Notes: generated from the sequence alone by a model not told the origin. 64,000 nt of DNA from Chloroflexota bacterium (GCA_016190825.1 JACPPV010000023.1:139476-203475), one strand, 5' to 3'. Positions 7,073-58,107 are shown, counted from the first letter of the stretch. Made by a program: numbers and translations.

Positions 7073-8890
7073 GTGACCTCTTCACTCATCGCTGAACAAT
7101 TGAAGCAAATGCCTGCCTGCCCCGGCGTTTACCTGATGAAGGACGCGGTGGGTAGCATACTTTACGTGGGCAAGGCGGCAAGCCTGCGCAACCGGGTAAG
7201 GTCGTACTTCGCCCCTGCCGAAAAGCTGACGCCCAAGATCCAGCGCATGGTCTCCCGCGTGCACGACATCGATTTTTTCGTTACCAACACGGACCAGGAA
7301 GCGCTTATCCTTGAGCTGAACCTCATCAAGCGCCACCGTCCCCATTTCAATGTGCGCCTGAAGGATGACAAGACTTTTCCCTTTCTCAAGATTACCCTCA
7401 ATGAAGAATGGCCAAGGGTATACTTCACGCGGCGCGTGGCCGAAGATGGCGGGCGCTACTTCGGACCCTTTGCCAGTGCCAGGTCGGTCCGCGAGACCCT
7501 GAAAGTTCTCCGGAGGATTTTCCCCTTCCGCACCTGCACCCGGCCTATCGACGGCGCCGATTCCCGCGCCTGCCTGGAGTACCACATGGGCCAGTGCGTG
7601 GGTCCCTGCATTGGTGCGGTGAGCAGGGAGGAATATGCGAAGGTGATAAAGCAGGTCATTCTCTTCCTGGAGGGCAGATCGGAGGCAGTCCTCCGGCAGT
7701 TGAAAGCCAGGATGCAGGCGGCTGCCGAGTCGCTGGACTTCGAAAAGGCGGCGGTGCTAAGAGACCAGGTCCAGGCGATCGAACAGGTTATCGAGGGCCA
7801 GCGAATCGCTGCCACGGTGAGCGGCGAGCAGGATGCCATCGCCTTCACCGCCGAAAGAGACATCGCCTACGTGCAGGTTTTTTTCATCCGTTCCGCTAAG
7901 CTTATCGGGCGGGAAAGTTTTGTTCTTCAAGGCGCCAACTCAGAGGAGCCGGAGCAGATTATGTCCGGCTTCATCAAGCAGTTTTACAGCTCCGCCACCT
8001 ATATCCCGCCGCTCCTTGCATTGCAGCATCCGGTGGAAGACAGGGCGACCATTGAGGCATGGCTGCAGAGCAAGAAGGGATCAAAAGTCCGCCTGCTGGT
8101 GCCGCGGCGGGGCAGTAAGAAACAACTCGTGGATATCGTCGCCGCCAATGCGGAGCAGGGCTTGCGTTTGATGAAGCTGAAACAACAGCTAGCTCACCCG
8201 GACTCGGCGGTTACGCTGGCCGAAATCCAGCAGGAGCTTCGTCTGCCGCGTCCGCCCGAAAGGATGGAGTGCTACGATATTTCGAATATTCAGGGTAAGT
8301 TGGCCGTGGGAAGCATGGTGGTCTTTGAGAAAGGAAAACCGAAGCCCGCCCACTACCGCCGCTTTCGCATAAAGACCATAGGGGGCGCCGACGATTATGC
8401 CATGCTCCAGGAGGTGCTGCGGCGGCGTTTCAAGCGGGGCCGCGAAGGCGAGGTCTCCTGGGCGGTCGTGCCTGACCTTGTTCTTATCGACGGCGGTAAG
8501 GGACAGCTTAACATGGCTCTTGCTGCTATGAAGGAAGTTGGTGCGGGAGATGTGCCGGTTGCCAGCCTGGCGAAAGAGCGGGAGGAAATTTTCGTACCCG
8601 AACGGGCTGGCCCCATTGCCCTTCCGGCGAGTTCGCCGGCCAGGCAGATGCTCCAGCATTTGAGGGATGAAGCGCACCGCTTCGCCCTGGGCTACCACAT
8701 CAGTATTCGCCAGAAGGCGTCCCTGACTTCGGCGCTGGACTCGGTCCCCGGCATCGGTCCCAGGCGAAAGCGGGCTTTGCTGAGGAAGTTTGGCTCGGTC
8801 CGGGGCATAAGGGAAGCCACCGCTGAAGAGCTGGCTGCGGCGCCGGGGATGACTGGAACTCTGGCAAAAAAGGTGAAAGAATATTTATGA
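7073..8890 (+). CDS. uvrC: Excinuclease ABC subunit C
   Basis: 605 aa. GIY-YIG (PGVYLMKD...ILYVGKA), UVR domain, RNase H-like endonuclease domain and C-terminal HhH2. GTG start. Confidence 0.93.
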   Translation: MTSSLIAEQLKQMPACPGVYLMKDAVGSILYVGKAASLRNRVRSYFAPAEKLTPKIQRMVSRVHDIDFFVTNTDQEALILELNLIKRHRPHFNVRLKDDKTFPFLKITLNEEWPRVYFTRRVAEDGGRYFGPFASARSVRETLKVLRRIFPFRTCTRPIDGADSRACLEYHMGQCVGPCIGAVSREEYAKVIKQVILFLEGRSEAVLRQLKARMQAAAESLDFEKAAVLRDQVQAIEQVIEGQRIAATVSGEQDAIAFTAERDIAYVQVFFIRSAKLIGRESFVLQGANSEEPEQIMSGFIKQFYSSATYIPPLLALQHPVEDRATIEAWLQSKKGSKVRLLVPRRGSKKQLVDIVAANAEQGLRLMKLKQQLAHPDSAVTLAEIQQELRLPRPPERMECYDISNIQGKLAVGSMVVFEKGKPKPAHYRRFRIKTIGGADDYAMLQEVLRRRFKRGREGEVSWAVVPDLVLIDGGKGQLNMALAAMKEVGAGDVPVASLAKEREEIFVPERAGPIALPASSPARQMLQHLRDEAHRFALGYHISIRQKASLTSALDSVPGIGPRRKRALLRKFGSVRGIREATAEELAAAPGMTGTLAKKVKEYL

Positions 8891-10671: not shown

Positions 10672-11829
10672 CTAGACGAATGCGGCCACGCCCAGGGTCT
10701 CCCGTGCGATGATGAGCTTCTGGATTTCGGCGGTTCCCTCGTAGAGTTGCAGCCCGATGGCATCACGGAGGTAGCGCTCCGCTGGATACTCGTTGGAGTA
10801 GCCGTAGCCGCCATGAATTTTGATCCCTTTTTGCGCCGCCCGCACCGCCACCTCGGCGGCGTAGTACTTGGCGATGGAAGCCTCGCGTACAAAGTTCTGC
10901 CCTTTATCTTTCATGCTTCCGGCGCGGTAAACAAACCAGCGTGCCGTTTCGGTCTCGGCGACCGTTTCAGCTACCATCTCCTGGACAAGCTGGAATCCGG
11001 CGATGGGTCTGCCAAACTGCTTCCTCTCCCGGGCGTATTTTACCGCCGCCTCAATGCTTGCCTGCGCAACCCCCACGCAAGCGGCGGCAGTGCTTAGCCG
11101 GGCGCAGTCCAGCGCATACATCGCCACCTTAAAACCCTCGCCGACTTCGCCCAGCATATTTTCAGATGGTACCATGCAGTCTTGAAAGATGAGCTCGGCG
11201 GTATTTGAATCGCGCAGTCCGAGCTTGCCGTGAATGTTACGACTCGAAAAGCCGGGCGCACCGCGTTCTACCAGGAAGGCGGTGATCCCCCGGTGGCGCT
11301 TTGTCTTGTCTGTCTGGGCAAAGACCAGGGCAATATCGGCGATGCCGCCGTTAGAAATCCACATCTTGTTGCCCCTGAGGACCCAGTTGCTGCCATCGGG
11401 TCGCGCGCTCAGTTCAATGTCGGCGGCATCGCTCCCGATATTGGGCTCGGTCAGGGCGAAGCAGCCGAGTATCTCACCGCCAGTTGCGCGGGGGAGGAAT
11501 CTTTGTTTCAAATTCTCGCTGCCGAAGCGCAGGATTGACATCTGGAACAGCGAGGTGTGCACTGTCAGACAGGTGGTGAATACCCCGGCAGAAGCTTTGG
11601 CAATCTCCTCGCAAATCATGAGATAGGTGACGTAGTCGAGCCCGGCTCCGCCGTACTCCAGTGGCAGCGGCGCACCGAGCAGACCTAAATCCGCCATTTT
11701 CTGCGTTATTTCGGGGCGGTAATGCTCATTCAGGTCGTCTTCCCTGGCGACCGGGCTGATTTCTCTCTGGGCAAAATCCCGGGCCAGGTTGCGGACCTGC
11801 TCTTGTTCACCGCTAATATCAAAATCCAT
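10672..11829 (-). CDS. Acyl-CoA dehydrogenase
   Basis: 385 aa. GCFALTEPNIGSDA, YEGTAEIQ and a C-terminal catalytic Glu context. Confidence 0.9.
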   Translation of the reverse strand: MDFDISGEQEQVRNLARDFAQREISPVAREDDLNEHYRPEITQKMADLGLLGAPLPLEYGGAGLDYVTYLMICEEIAKASAGVFTTCLTVHTSLFQMSILRFGSENLKQRFLPRATGGEILGCFALTEPNIGSDAADIELSARPDGSNWVLRGNKMWISNGGIADIALVFAQTDKTKRHRGITAFLVERGAPGFSSRNIHGKLGLRDSNTAELIFQDCMVPSENMLGEVGEGFKVAMYALDCARLSTAAACVGVAQASIEAAVKYARERKQFGRPIAGFQLVQEMVAETVAETETARWFVYRAGSMKDKGQNFVREASIAKYYAAEVAVRAAQKGIKIHGGYGYSNEYPAERYLRDAIGLQLYEGTAEIQKLIIARETLGVAAFV

Positions 11830-16973: not shown

Positions 16974-17014
16974 CGTCTTGCGCTGGCACCTCAGTTGCAA
17001 GACCGCTACATAAT

Positions 17015-17090
17015 TTGTCATTGCGAGTCCCGACAAGTCAGGACTCGCAATCCGTGCGATTGCAACCCTGAGACGGATTGCTTGCGGAGT
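17015..17090. repeat. Palindromic repeat (TGTCATTGCGAG family)
   Basis: ttgtcattgcgagtcccgacaagtcaggactcgcaatccgtgcgattgcaaccctgagacggattgcttgcgg. The inner half is nearly the same as 32980-33017. Confidence 0.6.
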
Positions 17091-17264
17091 TCATATGGAG
17101 CGCAGGGCGTGCTCCATATGACAGGATATGATATTTTGTCATTCTCTGCCTCCTATTGCGTATTCCGCCGAAATCGGCCGCCTGGCTGGAGCAAAGTAGG
17201 CTACTTGTCCGGGTAAACCAGGCCATTCAGGGAGGGGCGCCGGGATGGCCTTAATCTAACTCAA

Positions 17265-17470
17265 CTACTCGTTATTTACAATCGCCTCCTTCCGTTCAGT
17301 TTTGGTAGTTGTTTTCCGGGTGCGCATGGATTCCCCTTTCAGTTCTATTCTGTAGACGTTATAGAGCAGGCGGTCCATGATGGCATCGGCCAGGGTGGGT
17401 CGCCGATGTTGGGGTGCCAATCTCCGACAGGGCACCGGCTGGCAATGATGGCATACAGAAGACGCCAGAG
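17265..17470 (-). pseudogene. IS21-family IstB helper ATPase, C-terminal remnant with a frameshift
   Basis: LYAIIASRCPVGDWHPNIGDP, then a 1-nt shift, then TLADAIMDRLLYNVYRIELKGESMRTRK, stop at 17265-17267. This matches the conserved IstB C-terminus. No Walker motifs or istA are present. Confidence 0.55.
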
Positions 17471-17553: not shown

Positions 17554-17581
17554 TTCACATTTCTCTCGTTTGTTGTATACT
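17554..17581 (+). promoter_or_regulatory. Candidate sigma70-type promoter for tRNA-Sec
   Basis: TTCACA (17554-17559), 16-nt spacer, TATACT (17576-17581), about 18 nt upstream of the tRNA 5' end. Confidence 0.35.
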
Positions 17582-17598: not shown

Positions 17599-17695
17599 GG
17601 GAGCGGATAGGTCCCGGTGGGCTTCGCGGACTTCAAATCCGTCGGGGGGCGCTTATGGCGTCTTCGGTGGGTTCGACCCCCATGCGCTCCCGCCA
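17599..17695 (+). tRNA. selC: tRNA-Sec (anticodon UCA)
   Basis: 97 nt. Anticodon loop CU-UCA-AA with UCA at 17633-17635. 6-bp D-stem (aggtcc/gggctt) with a 4-nt loop. Long variable arm. T-loop GTTCGAC. 7 to 8-bp acceptor stem. Encoded G-CCA end. The overlapping ORF 17414-17731 is spurious. Confidence 0.85.
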
Positions 17696-17732
17696 AGAAA
17701 CACTTGCTCACGAGACCTGATCTCTAAATAGT

Positions 17733-18302
17733 TTGACAAGCGGCATGTCTAGACGTAGAATATCCCCAATTTCGGAGGTGCTCATGTCAAAACGGAAATC
17801 GGTGAGGGGAGAATTCTGGGCAACTGCGTTCATCGTCGCAATAGTGGGATGGGCGCTCTTGGCTGACTGGTGGAAGGATAATTCCGCACTTGGATGGAGC
17901 CTACTCGGAGTAATGGTAATCGCTCTTGGACTGGTTCTATACAGGTCACCCACAGTCAGAGGGTGGTTGGGACGCACAGCAAGGGTTGCAGCCGAGAAGG
18001 CAGTCTTTGAAGACAACATTGCATCAGATAGAGAACCGATACCCCCTGAGAAGCGGAGGCAGGTACTAGCGAGGACAGACGGCAAATGCGCGGTCGAGAA
18101 CTGCAATCAGTCCGTGCGTCCGCACATACATCATATAGACATGAATAATCGTAACAATGACTTCCGTAATCTAATCGCATTATGTCCGAATTGCCATCAG
18201 AAAGCCCATAATGGGGATTTTACTCAGAGTCAACTTTGGAACTGGGTAAACCGGGACTTCCAGCAATTCAAAAAGCGGAGAGCTTCCCTGAGGTCCCGCT
18301 GA
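17733..18302 (+). CDS. Membrane-anchored HNH endonuclease-domain protein
   Basis: Two predicted TM helices (FWATAFIVAIVGWALLA, WSLLGVMVIALGLVLY) then an HNH motif CAVENC..HIHHID..N..NLIALCPNCHQKAH. The likely start is the internal MSKRK at 17784. Confidence 0.7.
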   Translation: MTSGMSRRRISPISEVLMSKRKSVRGEFWATAFIVAIVGWALLADWWKDNSALGWSLLGVMVIALGLVLYRSPTVRGWLGRTARVAAEKAVFEDNIASDREPIPPEKRRQVLARTDGKCAVENCNQSVRPHIHHIDMNNRNNDFRNLIALCPNCHQKAHNGDFTQSQLWNWVNRDFQQFKKRRASLRSR

Positions 18303-18435
18303 GAAATCGCCCCTTTGCTCCCGCCAGAATCTCACTCCCCCTCCACCCCTCAGCCTCGCGTCGCTGATGCCGAGGTGGTGAAGTTCTGCTATAATTCTCT
18401 AAGGCTCGACTACATCTACATCTGCAGGTGGGTTA

Positions 18436-18630
18436 ATGATGGAAACGCTCAGATTTGTCTATTACCAGGAAGGTGATATGTGGGTTGGCTGGCTCGATGA
18501 GTATCCGGATTACAGGAGCCAGGGAAAAACGCTGGATGAGCAAAAAGAAAACCTCAGGGATATATACGAAGACCTCAACAGCGGAAAGGTTCCCCACGTC
18601 CGCAGATATGGGGAACTAATAGTCGGGTGA
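18436..18630 (+). CDS. hicB: HicB-like antitoxin (short form)
   Basis: 64 aa. FVYYQEGDMWVGWLDEYPDYRSQGKTLDEQKENLRDIYEDL has the HicB N-domain pattern. GTGA overlap with the next gene. Confidence 0.55.
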   Translation: MMETLRFVYYQEGDMWVGWLDEYPDYRSQGKTLDEQKENLRDIYEDLNSGKVPHVRRYGELIVG

Positions 18631-18802
18631 AGAGAACTGAGCTTATCAGGAGAATCAACAGCCTGGGATGCGTTTTTATCCGCCACGGTGGTAGCCATGA
18701 TTGGTGCCAAAATCCGGAAACTAGGTCTCTCAACCCGTTCCGAGGCATCGCGAAATTGCTGACAGCCTCGCGAAGCATGTTCTTAAGATGCTGGGTCCCT
18801 AA
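18627..18802 (+). pseudogene. hicA: HicA toxin, frameshifted
   Basis: MKRTELIRRINSLGCVFIRHGGSHDWCQNPETRSLN is in one frame. The conserved end VPRHREIADSLAKHVLKMLGP-stop (TAA 18800-18802) is in another. The shift is at the CCC run 18735-18737. The listed ORF 18627-18875 is the read-through frame. Confidence 0.6.
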
Positions 18803-18889
18803 CTGCACAATAAACAGGACCGAAACGTCTTCAGTCTATTCCAGGGAAAAAGATCGGGTAGCCAGGTTTCTTTAGTTACGGACAAGCAG

Positions 18890-19267
18890 TTACTCGTCCG
18901 CCTCCAGCTCCTTAAGCCTCGCATCGCTGATGCCAAAGTGGTGAGCGATTTCGTGGCGTAGCGTTTTTCTTACCTCGGCGTAGACTTCATCGGCATTGCG
19001 GCACCTGGCCTCGATGGGTTTCCGGAAGAGGGTAATCTTGTCTGGCAGCACCATGCCGTAATAGGTGGTACGCTCGGTCTGCGGGATACCCTCGTAAAGC
19101 CCCAGCAACTCCCCTGCGTGTTCCAGCTCCGCCTGTTCTATCTGCTCCGGCGTTGGGTAATCCTCCACCACAATGTCCACGTTATCGAGCATATCCAGGA
19201 ACTCCTGCGGCAGTTCCTCAAACGCTTTGGCGACCATCTCTTCAAACTGTTCGTGACTTAATATCAA
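18890..19267 (-). CDS. Zincin-like metallopeptidase family protein (DUF1025 type)
   Basis: 125 aa. C-terminal HEIAHHFG metal site, acidic N-terminal half. Confidence 0.7.
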   Translation of the reverse strand: MILSHEQFEEMVAKAFEELPQEFLDMLDNVDIVVEDYPTPEQIEQAELEHAGELLGLYEGIPQTERTTYYGMVLPDKITLFRKPIEARCRNADEVYAEVRKTLRHEIAHHFGISDARLKELEADE

Positions 19268-19298
19268 AGAAATCCTTCTCAGTAAGAAAGTACATAAT

Positions 19299-19369
19299 TG
19301 TCATTCCGGTCTCTGCGATGGGATCAAGGGTTGCCACCCCAGTGGATTCCCGCTTGCGCGGGAATGACA
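19299..19369. repeat. Palindromic repeat (GTCATTCC...GGGAATGAC type)
   Basis: gtcattccggtctctgcgatgggatcaagggttgccaccccagtggattcccgcttgcgcgggaatgac. Confidence 0.5.
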
Positions 19370-19580: not shown

Positions 19581-19739
19581 TTATTCCCACTTTGTCATTG
19601 CGAGCCATTCTTCTCACCTGTCATCGCGAGCGAAGCGTGGCGATCCCAAAGGATATCCAGAGATTGCCACCCTTCGACAGGCTCAGGGCAGGCTGGGCGG
19701 AGTTTACACTGAGCCTGCGAATGTGCCCTCGCAATGACA
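19581..19739. repeat. Cluster of intergenic palindromic repeats (TGTCATTGCGAG and CCCTTCGACAGGCTCAGGGC types)
   Basis: ttgtcattgcgagcc..gtcatcgcgagcgaagcg..cccttcgacaggctcagggcaggc..ccctcgcaatgaca, directly downstream of the selB stop. Confidence 0.55.
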
Positions 19740-19758
19740 ACTCTAGATTTGCTCCATG

Positions 19759-21609
19759 CTAATACAGCGCCCTCTCATCTCCAACGCGGCGGGTCAACTT
19801 CTTCTCGTCCAGATGCTCGAGAATCGCCTGGGCGTACTTGCGGCTGGTATTGAAGAGGTCGCGCACCTCCGCCAGGGTAACCTTGCCATTTTTCTTGATA
19901 TGGGCGATGATTTTGTCCACCATAATATTATAGGCGGACACGGAAAAGACCACCGAATCGCTAACCTTGACCACCTTCTGCTGTTCGGCGAGGAGATTGA
20001 GCAAATCTGGTTCGGGAATCTGGTCGCCCGGCGGGGAAAAGGGATTTTGCGCCAGGGACTTCAAAAACGCGTCAATCTTCGCCTGCTGCGCCGGGTTCAG
20101 TTTGACCTGATGAGACGGGAGGCGCACTGCCAGCCCTTCCTCGCCAAGTATACCTTCAGAAACGAGCCGGGGAAAGAGCTGGGGAGCATATTTGGTCATC
20201 CTAAGGCGGCTCGCCAGTTCAACCCGGGGCATGCCGCTCCGGACGGGATATTTGTGATGATACTCTTTCACTACAGCGGATGCTTCCGTGGTCAGTAGCG
20301 ACCACCCGGACGATGTGAAGAATGCGCGGTGCTCGCCTTCGCCCAGCGCCATAGCCCGACCTTCCTGGATAAGCGAATCCATGACCGCTTTGACCTGACC
20401 GGGGGGCAGCTGGCTCTGTGCCGCAAGTTCCCGCAGTTCAAGAGGCTGTTTCGATTGGAGCAATACCAGAAGGCTGGCCTCAGCGGCACCCCCTTCCTGT
20501 GCCTTCAGCGCCTCGATGGTTGCCGGGCGGAAGCGGTGCACCCGCTTGGCGTGCGCCTCGATGACCTTGCCCCCCCCGAGCGTCTCCATCGGCGAGCGGA
20601 TGATATAGTGGTCGCCTTTGACGAGCGCCACCGGCTCCTCCAGCACAAGCTGCGCCCAGCCGGTTTCTCCGGGCTGGAGCTTCTCCTTCTCCAGCAGGCG
20701 GACTTTCGCCATCGTCTCGGCGGCGCCGGTATGGAAGCTGACGGTCGTACTGTGTATCAGCGGGCGGCGGATGTAGTCCAGCAAGCGGAGCCGGGCGCTG
20801 AGGAGTGTTGTGGGTACAAGCCAGCCGGGCTTAGTCAAAACATTGCCGCGGACTACCTGGGTGGTGGTTATCCCGACTATATTGGCGGCGACACGGCTGC
20901 CGGGGGCAGCGGTGTTGACTCGGGCTTTGTGCGTCTGCAATCCACGCAGGCGCGATTTCAGCCCGGGCGGAACAATTTCCACTTCATCCCCCACCGAAAA
21001 GGAGCCATCGATAAGCGTGCCGGTAACGACGGTGCCCGCCCCGGCGATGGTAAAGATGCGGTCGATAGGCAGCCGCGGCCGCCCGATGTCCTTTTTCGGC
21101 TCGGTTTCAGCCAGAAGTCTGTCGATCATCGCTGCCAGTTGAGGCAGACCTTCAGAGGTGATGGCGGAGACTGGAACGATGGGAGCCCCGGAAAGGCAGG
21201 TGGGTTTGAGCAGTTCTTCGATATCACCGGCGACCAGTTCCAGCCACTCGTCATCAACCAGGTCTTTCTTGGTGAGTGCTACGATGCCGCGCTCGATGCC
21301 GAGCAAGTCGAGAATAGCGAGGTGCTCGCGGGTTTGGGGCATTATCCCCTCATTGGCAGCTATCACCAGCAGGGCGAGGTCTATCCCGCCAACTCCTGCC
21401 AGCATGTTCTTGACGAAGCGCTCGTGGCCGGGCACATCAACGATCCCGACTTCCTGCCCGCTTGGCAGCTTGAGCCAGGCGAAGCCAAGGTCGATTGTCA
21501 TCCCCCGCTCCTGCTCCTCGCGCAGGCGGTCCGGCTCAATGCCCGTCAGTGCCTTGACCAGCGCCGATTTTCCATGGTCGATATGCCCCGCCGTTCCCAG
21601 GACGTACAT
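19759..21609 (-). CDS. selB: Selenocysteine-specific translation elongation factor
   Basis: Start taken at MYVLGTAGHIDHGKS (G1). DVPGHERF (G3), TKKD (G4). Long C-terminal winged-helix extension. The upstream part of the listed ORF runs into a repeat element. Confidence 0.9.
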   Translation of the reverse strand: MYVLGTAGHIDHGKSALVKALTGIEPDRLREEQERGMTIDLGFAWLKLPSGQEVGIVDVPGHERFVKNMLAGVGGIDLALLVIAANEGIMPQTREHLAILDLLGIERGIVALTKKDLVDDEWLELVAGDIEELLKPTCLSGAPIVPVSAITSEGLPQLAAMIDRLLAETEPKKDIGRPRLPIDRIFTIAGAGTVVTGTLIDGSFSVGDEVEIVPPGLKSRLRGLQTHKARVNTAAPGSRVAANIVGITTTQVVRGNVLTKPGWLVPTTLLSARLRLLDYIRRPLIHSTTVSFHTGAAETMAKVRLLEKEKLQPGETGWAQLVLEEPVALVKGDHYIIRSPMETLGGGKVIEAHAKRVHRFRPATIEALKAQEGGAAEASLLVLLQSKQPLELRELAAQSQLPPGQVKAVMDSLIQEGRAMALGEGEHRAFFTSSGWSLLTTEASAVVKEYHHKYPVRSGMPRVELASRLRMTKYAPQLFPRLVSEGILGEEGLAVRLPSHQVKLNPAQQAKIDAFLKSLAQNPFSPPGDQIPEPDLLNLLAEQQKVVKVSDSVVFSVSAYNIMVDKIIAHIKKNGKVTLAEVRDLFNTSRKYAQAILEHLDEKKLTRRVGDERALY

Positions 21610-21691
21610 ATCTAAATTGTCACATAGAAAGGGCGGGATGTCTACCCGGAGGAAAAGACGCTTCAGCAAATAAGACAGGGGACACAAAATG

Positions 21692-21750
21692 CCGTTCGTG
21701 GTGAGCCTGTCGAACCATGAATGGCCCTTCGACAAGCTCAGGGCGAACGG
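21692..21750. repeat. 59-bp palindromic repeat (CCGTTCG...CGAACGG family)
   Basis: ccgttcgtggtgagcctgtcgaaccatgaatggcccttcgacaagctcagggcgaacgg. Close to 40637-40695. Confidence 0.8.
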
Positions 21751-21855
21751 GTTGATAAGTCATCCATGAACGATGCGGAATAACCAGATTACAAGAGACA
21801 AACAATTGACCGATATGCAGTTGGGTACGATCCGTTAACATTCATTTGCAGATGT

Positions 21856-57363: not shown

Positions 57364-58107
57364 ATGGGATTTCTATTGGCTTTACAGTTTTTGACCAGGG
57401 TCCCCATCACAATCCCCCGTATTGTGGATGACAGGGTGATGGCGCGGTCCCTGTCCTATTTCTCCCTCGTTGGCTTACTGATTGGCGCAAGCGCTGCCGG
57501 ACTGCACTACCTGCTTAGTCTGGGCTTCTCACCGACGGTAGCCAATCTGGGCGCAATCATTTTTATGATCTTCGTGACAGGCAATCTTCACGGCGATGGC
57601 CTGATGGATACGGCTGACGGCATTTTCAGCGGGCGTCCGCGGGCCCAGATGCTGGAAATTATGAAGGATAGCCGGGTCGGTGCTAATGGGGTGACGGCTG
57701 GCGTCCTGGCCGTGTTGCTGAAAGTTGTCCTATTGGGCGAGATGGATAGGTCATCGCAGATGATGGCGCTGGCAGTGGCGCCGGCACTGGGCCGCTGGGC
57801 GCAGGTATATGGGGCTGCCCGCTACACCTATGCCAGAAGCAATGGTGGAACGGGCGCCTTTACAGCTCATGTGGGCTGGCGGGAGCTGATTATCAATTCA
57901 ATAGTGGCTGCCGTGTTGGGTCTGGCGCTTTTGAGGATGCATGGATTTATTCTCCTGGGGATTATCCTGGCCGGCACTGTCCTGTTTCACGAGTTCATCA
58001 AGAGTAAACTGGGCGGTATTACCGGTGACACACTCGGCGCTGCCAATGAATGGATAGAAATATTGGCTCTCTTAGGGATGGTTCTCTTGCTATCACCCAG
58101 GTTTTAG
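57364..58107 (+). CDS. cobS: Adenosylcobinamide-GDP ribazoletransferase (cobalamin synthase)
   Basis: 247 aa. MGFLLALQFLTRVPI N-terminus, HGDGLMDTADG motif, multi-TM. Confidence 0.9.
   Translation: MGFLLALQFLTRVPITIPRIVDDRVMARSLSYFSLVGLLIGASAAGLHYLLSLGFSPTVANLGAIIFMIFVTGNLHGDGLMDTADGIFSGRPRAQMLEIMKDSRVGANGVTAGVLAVLLKVVLLGEMDRSSQMMALAVAPALGRWAQVYGAARYTYARSNGGTGAFTAHVGWRELIINSIVAAVLGLALLRMHGFILLGIILAGTVLFHEFIKSKLGGITGDTLGAANEWIEILALLGMVLLLSPRF

What the first reader, a model, noticed from the sequence alone, without database searches (positions are those of the whole stretch)
17686..18326. HNH gene sits in a ~630-bp islet bounded by a direct repeat of the tRNA-Sec 3' end
Seen in sequence:
- The last 10 nt of the tRNA (GCTCCCGCCA, 17686-17695, followed by AGAA) recur at 18317-18326 (followed by GAA).
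- The second copy lies 15 nt after the HNH gene stop.
- A 10-mer match within 700 bp is unlikely by chance, roughly 1 in 1500 for a fixed 10-mer.

Established knowledge: integrative elements that target tRNA genes regenerate the tRNA 3' end and leave a partial copy at the distal junction.

Inference: this is a remnant of an element integrated into selC that has lost its integrase. Together with the adjacent istB fragment, it marks selC as an integration hotspot.
Basis: partly seen in the sequence, partly recalled or inferred. Interest (0 to 1): 0.55.

Follow-up and report, generated by a model that had tools for sequence, protein, structure and literature searches.

The report
Decayed mobile islet at tRNA-Sec
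A small gene for a membrane-anchored DNA-cutting enzyme sits just after the selenocysteine tRNA gene of an uncultured Dehalococcoidia bacterium, and it is most likely the last surviving piece of a mobile element that inserted there and later lost its integrase; this is an ordinary kind of genome scar.

Summary
tRNA-Sec lies at 17599-17695, and its last 10 nt recur at 18317-18326, 14 nt after the stop of an intact HNH gene (17784-18302). An end-anchored test gives p about 0.0007-0.003. Free local alignment does not flag the match, and it does not extend significantly beyond 10 nt.

- **Ancestral junction.** A decayed copy of the 3' end of the neighbouring zincin gene begins 9 nt after the second repeat copy. 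The 18317-18381 segment therefore looks like a fossil of an older junction, tRNA-Sec facing zincin. A relative (L208) shows the same layout: a 31-nt tRNA-Sec copy, 15 nt, then the zincin stop.
- **Variable site.** In relatives the interval after tRNA-Sec ranges from 17 nt to 6.7 kb. L023, L208, L085, L001 and L004 carry partial tRNA-Sec copies there. L085, L023 and L012 also carry integrase remnants.
- **Recurrent cargo.** HNH homologues (44-58% identical) ride in tRNA-integrated elements with one tyrosine-integrase family. The integrase is intact in L114, a pseudogene in L085, a 24-aa stub in L100, and absent here.

The HNH gene has low GC3 (0.53, against 0.70-0.72 for neighbours).

Verdict: a degenerate, CIME-like selC islet. 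It is a new member of a known kind, of modest interest.

The parts
17599..17695 (+). Intact tRNA-Sec (selC), anticodon TCA. It forms the attL side of the islet.
   Evidence: ARAGORN. Rfam RF01852 at 67.8 bits. The last 30 nt are almost identical to tRNA-Sec of 15 relatives.
17554..17581 (+). Promoter-like site before tRNA-Sec (TTCACA, 16 nt, TATACT).
   Evidence: Consensus scan, 10 of 12 matches. A TATACT-like box lies at a similar distance upstream of tRNA-Sec in most relatives (by eye).
17686..17695 (+). Proximal copy of the direct repeat GCTCCCGCCA, which is the 3' end of the tRNA.
   Evidence: D8.
17733..17761 (+). Sigma-70-like promoter of the HNH gene (TTGACA, 17 nt, TAGAAT).
   Evidence: Consensus scan, 11 of 12 matches. 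A consensus match only; function is inferred.
17784..18302 (+). HNH gene of 172 aa, the islet's cargo. It encodes an N-terminal hairpin of two transmembrane-type helices and a C-terminal HNH nuclease domain.
   Evidence: Pfam PF01844, E = 2.5e-5. All invariant residues of a 34-member family are kept. AlphaFold model with pLDDT 81; the best fold matches are the HNH domains of Cap5 and McrA. GC3 is 0.53, in the lowest 7% of the window's ORFs.
18317..18326 (+). Distal copy of the direct repeat, read as a truncated attR. This is the displaced 3' end of the tRNA. A weak extension reaches back to 18310.
   Evidence: Anchored p = 0.0007-0.003. The extension is not significant.
18336..18381 (-). Decayed copy of the last 48 nt or so of the zincin gene. 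Together with 18317-18326 it forms a fossil of the older junction between tRNA-Sec and zincin.
   Evidence: Local alignment with 18897-18944 scores 52, against a shuffle mean of 16.8 and a maximum of 31. (D1). Collinear with the junction in L208. The minus-strand translation reads HHLGISDARLRG.
18382..18889 (+). A second small insertion. It holds a putative hicB-like gene (18436-18630) and a frameshifted hicA (18627-18802). It lies between the zincin fossil and the live zincin gene.
   Evidence: HicA_toxin partial match at 22 bits. The canonical C-terminus VPRHREIADSLAKHVLKMLGP* is in another frame. The hicB-like ORF has no Pfam hit. GC is 0.48.
18890..19267 (-). Live zincin-like metallopeptidase gene, the conserved neighbour that faces tRNA-Sec.
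   Evidence: Pfam PF06262, E = 1e-33. Orthologues lie next to selB and/or tRNA-Sec in L023, L208 and L209.
19759..21609 (-). selB, the anchor gene used for the comparison with relatives.
   Evidence: Pfam SelB domains. In 12 relatives, selB and tRNA-Sec are convergent.
17265..17435 (-). C-terminal fragment of IstB (an IS21 remnant) on the 5' side of tRNA-Sec. It is context, not part of the islet.
   Evidence: Pfam PF01695, profile positions 206-235 of 238. 47% identical to the C-terminus of a full IstB in L088.

Best explanation
The segment 17696-18326 is the degenerate remainder of a small integrative element that recombined site-specifically with the 3' part of tRNA-Sec.

The proposed history has three steps:
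1. The element carried its own copy of the tRNA's 3' end, so integration restored a working tRNA (attL, 17599-17695). The original 3' end was pushed to the far side (attR).
2. The original 3' end had stood almost back to back with the stop of the zincin gene. That is why the surviving 10-nt tRNA remnant (18317-18326) now lies 9 nt from a decayed copy of the zincin 3' end (18336-18381).
3. A later deletion removed the tyrosine integrase gene and most of attR. It left only the attL-proximal cargo: a promoter and an intact gene for a membrane-anchored HNH nuclease.

The HNH gene is typical cargo of this element family in Dehalococcoidia. It has probably been kept because it is useful or hard to lose, for example as a defence- or restriction-type nuclease. 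The islet itself can no longer move on its own.

A second small insertion, the hicB-like/hicA cassette, later split off the old zincin 3' end in the same way.

**Shown:** the repeat, the fossil junction, the variable interval after tRNA-Sec in relatives, the tRNA-Sec copies in relatives, and the link between HNH and the integrase.

**Inferred:** the order of events, the deletion, and the function of the HNH protein.
For: **Repeat.** It is anchored at the exact tRNA end, with p = 0.0007-0.003.

**Fossil junction.**
- The zincin 3' copy scores 52 against a shuffle maximum of 31.
- It is collinear with L208, which reads: 31-nt tRNA-Sec copy, 15 nt, zincin stop. In L208 the intact tRNA-Sec lies 3.2 kb away.

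**Partial tRNA-Sec copies downstream of the intact gene in other genomes.**
- L023: 45 nt, score 75.
- L208: 28 and 31 nt.
- L085: 65-72 nt at 89% identity.
- L001: 67 nt.
- L004: two further 10-11 nt copies.

**HNH homologues in tRNA-linked elements.**
- L085: tRNA-Sec, HNH, SNase, decayed integrase (7405-8167), then the attR copy.
- L096: the HNH gene starts 110 nt after tRNA-Sec.
- L114: HNH, then 10 nt, then an intact convergent integrase (PF00589, 81.8 bits), then a partial tRNA copy.
- L100: only a 24-26 aa integrase stub remains after HNH.

**One element family.**
- The integrase-proximal arm is conserved between L001, L114 and L085.
- C-terminal remnants of the same integrase family lie next to tRNA-Sec in L012 and L023.

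**Absence in relatives.** None of the 29 closest selB loci fetched (L001-L029), which include the 12 with tRNA-Sec facing selB, has this HNH gene.

**Composition.** HNH GC3 is 0.53, against 0.70 for zincin and 0.72 for selB.

**Assembly.** Independent assemblies confirm the arrangement.
Against: - The distal repeat is only 10 nt, against 28-72 nt in the clear cases. It is not detectable without anchoring at the tRNA end.
- No integrase trace remains in the window, so the link to the integrase family is by homology of the cargo only.
- The HNH homologues are only 44-58% identical. They also occur in places with no tRNA or integrase in view, such as L089 and L092.
- No near-identical genome with an empty site was found. 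The closest SelB is 70% identical.
- Overall GC of the islet (0.50) differs only modestly from the window mean (0.54).
Confidence: 0.7

Rival explanations
1. The HNH gene was imported by recombination without a site-specific integrase.

DNA from a donor that already had tRNA-Sec followed by HNH was taken up. It recombined homologously within the highly conserved tRNA-Sec on one side. On the other side it joined illegitimately 10 nt before the end of the recipient's tRNA. This is homology-facilitated illegitimate recombination.

On this reading the 10-nt repeat is the leftover of the recipient's tRNA, not an att site. The hicB-like/hicA cassette would have entered the same way, anchored in the zincin gene.
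For: - It explains two adjacent single-gene insertions that have no recombinase and repeats of unrelated length: 10 nt, and 46-48 nt at about 85% identity.
- tRNA-Sec is nearly invariant among relatives, which makes it a good homology anchor.
- A donor-like layout exists: in L096 the HNH gene starts 110 nt after tRNA-Sec.
- In L095 and L096 the HNH gene alone is flanked by 55-62 nt repeats of local, non-tRNA sequence. No att site of the integrase family explains these.
Against: - Relatives show clear integrase-type signatures at the same tRNA: long tRNA copies together with integrase genes or remnants.
- HNH is physically linked to that integrase family in L114, L085 and L100.
- Natural competence of these organisms is unknown.
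Confidence: 0.13
2. The 10-nt repeat is a chance match. On this reading the HNH gene is a resident gene that happens to lie after tRNA-Sec, with no integration event.
For: - Unanchored alignments do not single out the match.
- The 10-mer occurs once more in the window on the other strand.
- The extension beyond 10 nt is not significant.
Against: - The anchored probability is 0.0007-0.003.
- The copy sits exactly where the old tRNA end is expected, 9 nt from the zincin 3' fossil, as in L208.
- HNH is absent from the same interval in all relatives examined.
- Its GC3 is atypical.
- Its homologues ride in att-bounded elements.
Confidence: 0.07
3. The HNH gene is itself the mobile agent. On this reading it is a free-standing, homing-type endonuclease cassette of about 0.6 kb that inserts near tRNA genes and duplicates the local target.
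For: - In three loci the HNH gene and its promoter alone lie between direct repeats spaced 612-682 nt apart: the window, L095 and L096.
- Family members are often within about 1.5 kb of tRNA genes: Sec three times, Gly twice, and Ser, Gln and Leu once each.
Against: - Homing does not create target duplications.
- The protein has a membrane hairpin, which is unusual for a homing enzyme.
- No family member occurs in viral contigs.
- Most loci show no flanking repeats.
- The integrase linkage explains the proximity to tRNA genes more simply.
Confidence: 0.05

Closest known systems
Genomic islands and prophages integrated at selC (tRNA-Sec) in Enterobacteria, such as LEE, PAI-I of E. coli 536 and phage phiR73 (recalled from my own knowledge, not tested here)
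   Same: - The target gene is the same.
- The intact tRNA is regenerated at one end.
- A short direct repeat of the tRNA's 3' end lies at the other end. I recall about 16 bp for PAI-I of E. coli 536.
- Integrases are often decayed.
   Different: - The host is an uncultured Dehalococcoidia lineage.
- The islet is about 0.6 kb with a single gene, not tens of kilobases.
- The associated integrase family has an N-terminal HTH-like arm and lies at the attR end, reading inward.
- The repeat here is only 10 nt.
Dehalococcoides and Dehalogenimonas ssrA genomic islands (PMC3146451, PMC13390414)
   Same: - The bacterial class is the same.
- Tandem islands lie downstream of a single-copy small-RNA gene.
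- Each island is bounded by a short direct repeat of that gene's 3' end: 20 bp in Dehalococcoides, and 11-25 bp in Dehalogenimonas.
- Some islands lack an integration module and were proposed to be cis-mobilizable elements or fixed remnants.
   Different: - The target here is tRNA-Sec, not tmRNA.
- The linked recombinase is a tyrosine integrase (PF00589), not the serine recombinase DsiB.
- The units are far smaller and carry HNH, MFS or zinc-ribbon genes rather than rdhA operons.
Cis-mobilizable elements (CIMEs): remnants of integrative elements that are bounded by att sites and have no recombination genes
   Same: - The islet is flanked by the target gene's end and a copy of it.
- It has no integrase.
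- It derives from a family whose other members have one (L114 intact, L085 decayed).
   Different: The attR here is cut down to 10 nt, so it may no longer be recombinogenic. Mobilisation in trans has not been tested.
HNH nucleases of defence and restriction systems: the HNH domains of CBASS Cap5, McrA and ZorE
   Same: - The HNH core has zinc-binding CxxC pairs and the HH...N...H motif.
- The best fold and profile matches are Cap5, ScoMcrA, EcoKMcrA and ZorE.
- Neighbours in other loci look like defence genes: PDC-S35/TIR-like in L096 and SNase in L085.
   Different: - This is a stand-alone 172-aa protein with an N-terminal two-helix membrane hairpin and no sensor domain.
- All matches cover the HNH core only and fall far below the family cut-offs.

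Membership tests
tRNA-integrated genomic island (Islander-type definition) | An intact tRNA gene at one boundary. | tested here: met
   tRNA-SeC at 17599-17695.
tRNA-integrated genomic island (Islander-type definition) | A direct repeat of the tRNA's 3' segment at the other boundary. | tested here: met
   An exact 10-nt copy lies at 18317-18326, with anchored p = 0.0007-0.003. It is short and does not extend significantly. Its authenticity is supported by the adjoining zincin fossil.
tRNA-integrated genomic island (Islander-type definition) | An integrase gene inside the island. | tested here: not met
   tblastn with five integrase queries finds nothing in the window. Integrases or remnants are present in the homologous contexts L114, L085 and L100.
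tRNA-integrated genomic island (Islander-type definition) | The island is absent from the same site in related genomes (an empty site). | tested here: inconclusive
   - HNH is absent from all 29 closest selB loci fetched, including the 12 with tRNA-Sec facing selB.
- L021 has only 17 nt between selB and tRNA-Sec.
- L208 shows the predicted junction of old tRNA end and zincin.
- However, the closest relatives are only 67-74% identical at the protein level, and no same-species empty allele was found.
tRNA-integrated genomic island (Islander-type definition) | Composition that differs from the host genome. | tested here: met
   HNH GC3 is 0.53, against a median of 0.63 for 42 ORFs (lowest 7%). 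Neighbouring core genes are at 0.70-0.72. The effect is modest.
Cis-mobilizable element (CIME) | Functional attL and attR with no recombination or transfer genes, and mobilisation in trans by a related element. | not testable with these tools
   The lack of recombination genes is shown. Whether the 10-nt attR remnant can still recombine requires an experiment.
HNH endonuclease (Pfam PF01844) | The HNH motif with its metal-binding residues. | tested here: met
   PF01844 at 24.8 bits, above the 21.4-bit cut-off. Invariant C102, C107, H116, H117, D119, N125, C134, C137 and H138 are all kept. The model has a beta-beta-alpha core with pLDDT above 90.
Free-standing homing endonuclease gene | Occurrence in phage or intron contexts, with presence/absence alleles that lack target duplication. 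| tested here: not met
   No full-length family member occurs in IMG/VR viral contigs. Flanking repeats are present in three loci. The protein has a membrane hairpin.
HicAB toxin-antitoxin pair (the neighbouring cassette) | An intact HicA toxin (PF07927) with an upstream HicB antitoxin. | tested here: not met
   HicA matches only profile positions 3-33 at 22.2 bits, below the 27-bit cut-off. The remainder of HicA is in another reading frame, so the gene is frameshifted. The hicB-like ORF has no Pfam, NCBIfam or PADLOC hit.

The most novel reading that the evidence does not exclude
In this Dehalococcoidia lineage, tRNA-Sec may act as the anchor of a small cassette array. Single-gene units would each end in a copy of the tRNA's 3' end and would be inserted, shuffled and deleted by a trans-acting HTH-tyrosine integrase.

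The candidate units are:
- the HNH gene in this window;
- a 63-aa zinc-ribbon gene in L023;
- two MFS genes in L208;
- gene-free units of about 80 nt in L004.

On this reading the autonomous element of the family is only about 1.7 kb, made of the membrane-anchored HNH gene plus the integrase, as in L114. The HNH nuclease would be a functional partner of the element, for example in addiction or defence, and not a random passenger.
Probability: 0.15. Interest if true: 0.55.

Novelty: new member of a known kind. Interest (0 to 1): 0.3.

Why it matters
Integration at tRNA genes, selC included, is textbook biology, so the finding does not change a concept. Its value is local, in four respects:

- It shows that tRNA-Sec is a recurrent insertion site in uncultured Dehalococcoidia, alongside the well-known tmRNA site.
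- It identifies a small element family, a tyrosine integrase with a membrane-anchored HNH nuclease, that targets several tRNA genes.
- It gives a clean example of how such elements decay to a single retained cargo gene.
- The 65-nt fossil junction allows the order of two insertions to be reconstructed from one sequence.

For annotation, the HNH and hic genes here should be treated as accessory DNA.

Tried and rejected
**Tests of the repeat itself**
- Unanchored repeat tests show nothing special for the window: flank against flank gives z = 0.9, and the tRNA's 3' 75 nt against 9 kb downstream scores no better than shuffles. The statistical case therefore rests on the anchored test and on context.
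- The repeat cannot be extended into the T-arm (p = 0.17). An apparent similarity between the HNH 3' coding region and the tRNA anticodon arm (GGACTTC...) was dismissed, because that stretch encodes the family-conserved C-terminus.

**Searches for an empty site or a closer match**
- No same-species empty site was found. The genome-collection scan with SelB gave at best 70% identity. Exact-protein look-ups returned only short contigs of the same strain with the same layout.
- The viral-contig scan with the HNH alignment matched the HNH motif only.
- Permissive Rfam scans of 20 short HNH loci found no further partial tRNAs.

**Attempts to place the HNH protein**
- PADLOC, NCBIfam, PDB sequence search and Foldseek gave only generic matches to the HNH core.

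**Ideas considered and dropped**
- An integron-like attC explanation for the 55-nt repeats in L096. By eye there is no GTTRRRY-type core, and the idea was not pursued.
- A single-event (Campbell-type) model for both the HNH and hic insertions. It predicts a different order of the parts from the one observed.
- The IstB fragment as part of the same element. It is only 47% identical to the IstB near an HNH homologue in L088 and lies on the other side of the tRNA, so no link is shown.

Full report
**1. The observation**

The window has one tRNA gene, tRNA-Sec (anticodon TCA), at 17599-17695 on the + strand. Rfam tRNA-Sec scores 67.8 bits. Its last ten bases, GCTCCCGCCA, recur at 18317-18326 on the same strand.

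Between the two copies lie:
- a strong sigma-70-like promoter, TTGACA-17-TAGAAT, at 17733-17761;
- one intact ORF, 17784-18302, with a GGAGGTG ribosome-binding site.

The ORF matches Pfam HNH. Its stop codon ends 14 nt before the second repeat copy.

The statistical case depends on how the question is asked. If the tRNA end is fixed in advance, a recurrence of its last 10 nt or more has a frequency of 0.0007 within 700 nt and 0.003 within the 2063 nt up to selB (20,000 dinucleotide shuffles). As a free local alignment the match is no better than noise. The 14/17 extension reported by the repeat finder is not significant. The repeat alone is therefore suggestive, not decisive.

Independent assemblies from other sequencing runs reproduce the arrangement at 100% identity, so it is not a chimera.

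**2. A fossil junction next to the repeat**

Nine bases after the second repeat copy, 18336-18381 is a decayed copy of the last 48 nt or so of the zincin-like metallopeptidase gene. The live copy of that gene is at 18890-19267 on the - strand. The alignment scores 52, against a shuffle mean of 16.8 and a maximum of 31.

The 65-nt stretch 18317-18381 thus reads: end of tRNA-Sec, short spacer, end of zincin, with the two genes facing each other.

The genome with the most similar zincin gene shows exactly this layout. In L208 (74% identity; selA-selB-zincin) a 31-nt copy of the tRNA-Sec 3' part is followed by 15 nt and then the zincin stop codon. The intact tRNA-Sec lies 3.2 kb further on, beyond two MFS genes and a second, 28-nt copy.

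I conclude that in the ancestor tRNA-Sec and zincin were convergent and nearly abutting. Two insertions have since pushed both live genes away from their old ends:
- the HNH segment on the tRNA side;
- a 0.5-kb hicB-like/hicA segment (18382-18889) on the zincin side.

The hicA gene is frameshifted. Its canonical C-terminus is in another frame.

**3. The site in relatives**

SelB places the organism among Dehalococcoidales-like Chloroflexota, with a best identity of 70%. In 12 relatives tRNA-Sec is convergent with selB, but the interval between them ranges from 17 nt (L021) to 6.7 kb (L008). None of the 29 closest selB loci fetched contains this HNH gene, the hic genes or the DUF3096 gene.

Significant partial copies of tRNA-Sec lie downstream of the intact gene in:
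- L023, 45 nt;
- L208, 28 and 31 nt;
- L085, 65-72 nt.

L001 carries a 67-nt copy at the edge of its contig. L004 has a tandem set of units of about 80 nt, each ending in the same 10-mer as here.

C-terminal remnants of one tyrosine-integrase family lie beside tRNA-Sec or its copies in L012, L023 and L085.

selC is therefore a recurrent insertion site in this lineage.

**4. The HNH gene and its company**

The protein belongs to a compact family: 46 hits, 44-58% identical, about 168 aa, and where a source names them they are Chloroflexota.

The family has two N-terminal hydrophobic helices and a C-terminal HNH domain. The window's copy keeps every invariant residue. The AlphaFold model (pLDDT 81) shows a helical hairpin and a beta-beta-alpha core. 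Its best structural neighbours are the HNH domains of CBASS Cap5 and McrA-type restriction enzymes. No specific family is met. No full-length member occurs in viral contigs.

The genomic contexts of family members are informative:
- **L085/L086.** The homologue lies inside a 3.35-kb segment bounded by the intact tRNA-Sec and a 72-nt, 89%-identical copy of its 3' part. The segment also holds an SNase gene and a nearly full-length but frameshifted integrase next to the copy.
- **L096.** The homologue starts 110 nt after tRNA-Sec, the same layout as in the window.
- **L114.** HNH is followed after 10 nt by an intact convergent tyrosine integrase (PF00589, 81.8 bits). The 5' end of the integrase abuts a partial tRNA copy.
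- **L100.** Only a 24-26 aa integrase stub remains after HNH.
- **L117 and L106.** HNH lies in islands with related integrases next to tRNA-Pro and tRNA-Met.

The integrase-proximal arm is conserved between L001, L114 and L085.

These loci form a decay series. The integrase is intact in L114, a pseudogene in L085, a stub in L100, and absent in the window, while HNH stays intact throughout. Other members sit in contexts with no tRNA or integrase in view (L089, L092), so the association is frequent but not universal.

**5. Composition**

HNH has a GC3 of 0.53, hicB 0.57 and hicA 0.58. Zincin is at 0.70, DUF3096 at 0.71, selB at 0.72 and QueH at 0.70. HNH is in the lowest 7% of 42 ORFs in the window. 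This fits foreign origin, although the difference in overall GC is small.

**6. Mechanism**

The best-supported reading is classical site-specific integration into the 3' part of a tRNA gene. The element carries a replacement 3' end, and the old end is displaced to the distal junction. Here a later deletion removed the integrase and most of the distal copy, which left a promoter-plus-HNH islet that cannot move by itself.

The repeat, the fossil junction, the variable site and the HNH-integrase linkage are shown. The deletion and the order of events are inferred. The role of the HNH protein, probably a defence- or restriction-type nuclease held at the membrane, is inferred from fold and neighbours only.

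The main rival is import by homologous recombination anchored in the invariant tRNA, with an illegitimate join on the other side. This would also explain the neighbouring hic cassette, and the 55-62 nt non-tRNA repeats that flank HNH alone in L095 and L096. I cannot exclude it. Pure chance, and a self-mobile HNH cassette, are less likely; the reasons are given in the rival entries.

**7. Comparison with what is known**

The feature works like:
- the selC islands of Enterobacteria (my own knowledge);
- the tandem ssrA islands of Dehalococcoides and Dehalogenimonas. These are bounded by 11-25 bp repeats of the RNA gene's end and include units without integration genes that were proposed to be cis-mobilizable or fixed remnants (PMC3146451; PMC13390414).

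It differs from these in target (tRNA-Sec), recombinase type (tyrosine, not serine) and size (0.6 kb, one gene). I found no paper in the held library that describes selC-linked islands in Dehalococcoidia, but that is a narrow novelty. I classify it as a new member of a known kind.

**8. Limits**

- No same-species empty site was available.
- All comparisons are with genomes at 55-74% protein identity.
- Most metagenomic contigs are short.
- The distal repeat is too short for the statistics to carry the argument by themselves.

Noticed in passing
window 18336-18381 vs 18897-18944; insert 18382-18889: The hicB-like/hicA cassette is flanked by a 46-48 nt direct repeat (about 85% identical) of the zincin gene's 3' end. 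The live gene thus keeps a complete 3' end and the old end is left behind as a fossil. The fossil's reading (ARLR...EGE*, allowing a frameshift) looks closer to the orthologues' REIEG* ending than the live gene's KELEADE* does. The mechanism is unresolved: it could be a site-specific element or recombination anchored in zincin.
   Followed up: partly
window 18627-18802: hicA is frameshifted near 18730. Frame 0 gives the N-terminal half. Another frame gives the canonical C-terminus VPRHREIADSLAKHVLKMLGP*. The same sequence appears in an independent assembly (L081).
   Followed up: yes
window 17265-17435 (-): C-terminal fragment of an IS21 IstB helper protein on the 5' side of tRNA-Sec. It is 47% identical to the full IstB that lies near an HNH homologue in L088. 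No link to the islet is shown.
   Followed up: partly
window 17010-17130, 19285-19345, 19590-19605, 19728-19753: Hairpin-forming repeats built around TTGTCATTGCGAG / CTCGCAATGACAA, resembling REP-like elements. Two copies in inverted orientation bracket the stretch between the DUF3096 gene and selB. In L208, zincin overlaps the end of selB directly, so the DUF3096 segment may be another small insertion.
   Followed up: no
L096 112-165 vs 724-776; L095 181-242 vs 863-926: In two metagenomic loci the HNH gene and its promoter alone are flanked by 55-62 nt direct repeats (z = 18-21). The repeats are local sequence, unrelated to each other and to any tRNA end. In L096 the first copy starts 12 nt after tRNA-Sec. 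The integrase model does not explain this.
   Followed up: partly
L118 8160-8283 vs 11413-11537: A 124-nt direct repeat (about 80% identical) bounds a 3.25-kb islet that carries an HNH homologue, a metallophosphoesterase and zinc-ribbon genes. It has no integrase, and the repeat is not a tRNA.
   Followed up: partly
L004 15400-15600 (read on the - strand): Directly after tRNA-Sec lies a tandem set of gene-free units of about 80 nt. Each ends in (C)GCTCCCGCCA or GCTCACGCCA, the same 10-mer as in the window.
   Followed up: partly
L208 4270-7613: Two MFS transporter paralogues (59% identical) lie between the intact tRNA-Sec and zincin. Each is followed by a 28-31 nt copy of the tRNA-Sec 3' part, and both copies share the same variant (GATTCACATG). 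This is either a tandem duplication of a unit or two related insertions.
   Followed up: partly
L023 10277-10468 (-); L209 1917-2114 (-): A homologous zinc-ribbon gene of 63-65 aa (MAYITCPKC / MANITCPKC) lies immediately after tRNA-Sec in two genomes. In L023 it is closed off by a 45-nt tRNA-Sec copy, which makes a 286-nt 'islet'.
   Followed up: partly
L012 10452-10835: A different, unrelated HNH endonuclease (PF01844, E = 1e-9, no membrane helices) lies in the selB-tRNA-Sec interval of another relative. It sits near an integrase C-terminal remnant 22 nt from the tRNA end.
   Followed up: no
window 57877-57886 (-): The third copy of GCTCCCGCCA lies on the opposite strand, 40 kb away. It is treated as a chance occurrence, consistent with the few non-tRNA hits in 210 loci.
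   Followed up: partly
window 17554-17581 and relatives: A TATACT-like -10 box lies at a similar short distance upstream of tRNA-Sec in most relatives, although the flanks are otherwise unrelated. It is probably the conserved selC promoter.
   Followed up: no
window 21582-21756 (-): A weak Rfam match to AaHKsRNA41 (23.8 bits against a gathering score of 97) overlaps the start of selB. It is almost certainly chance.
   Followed up: no
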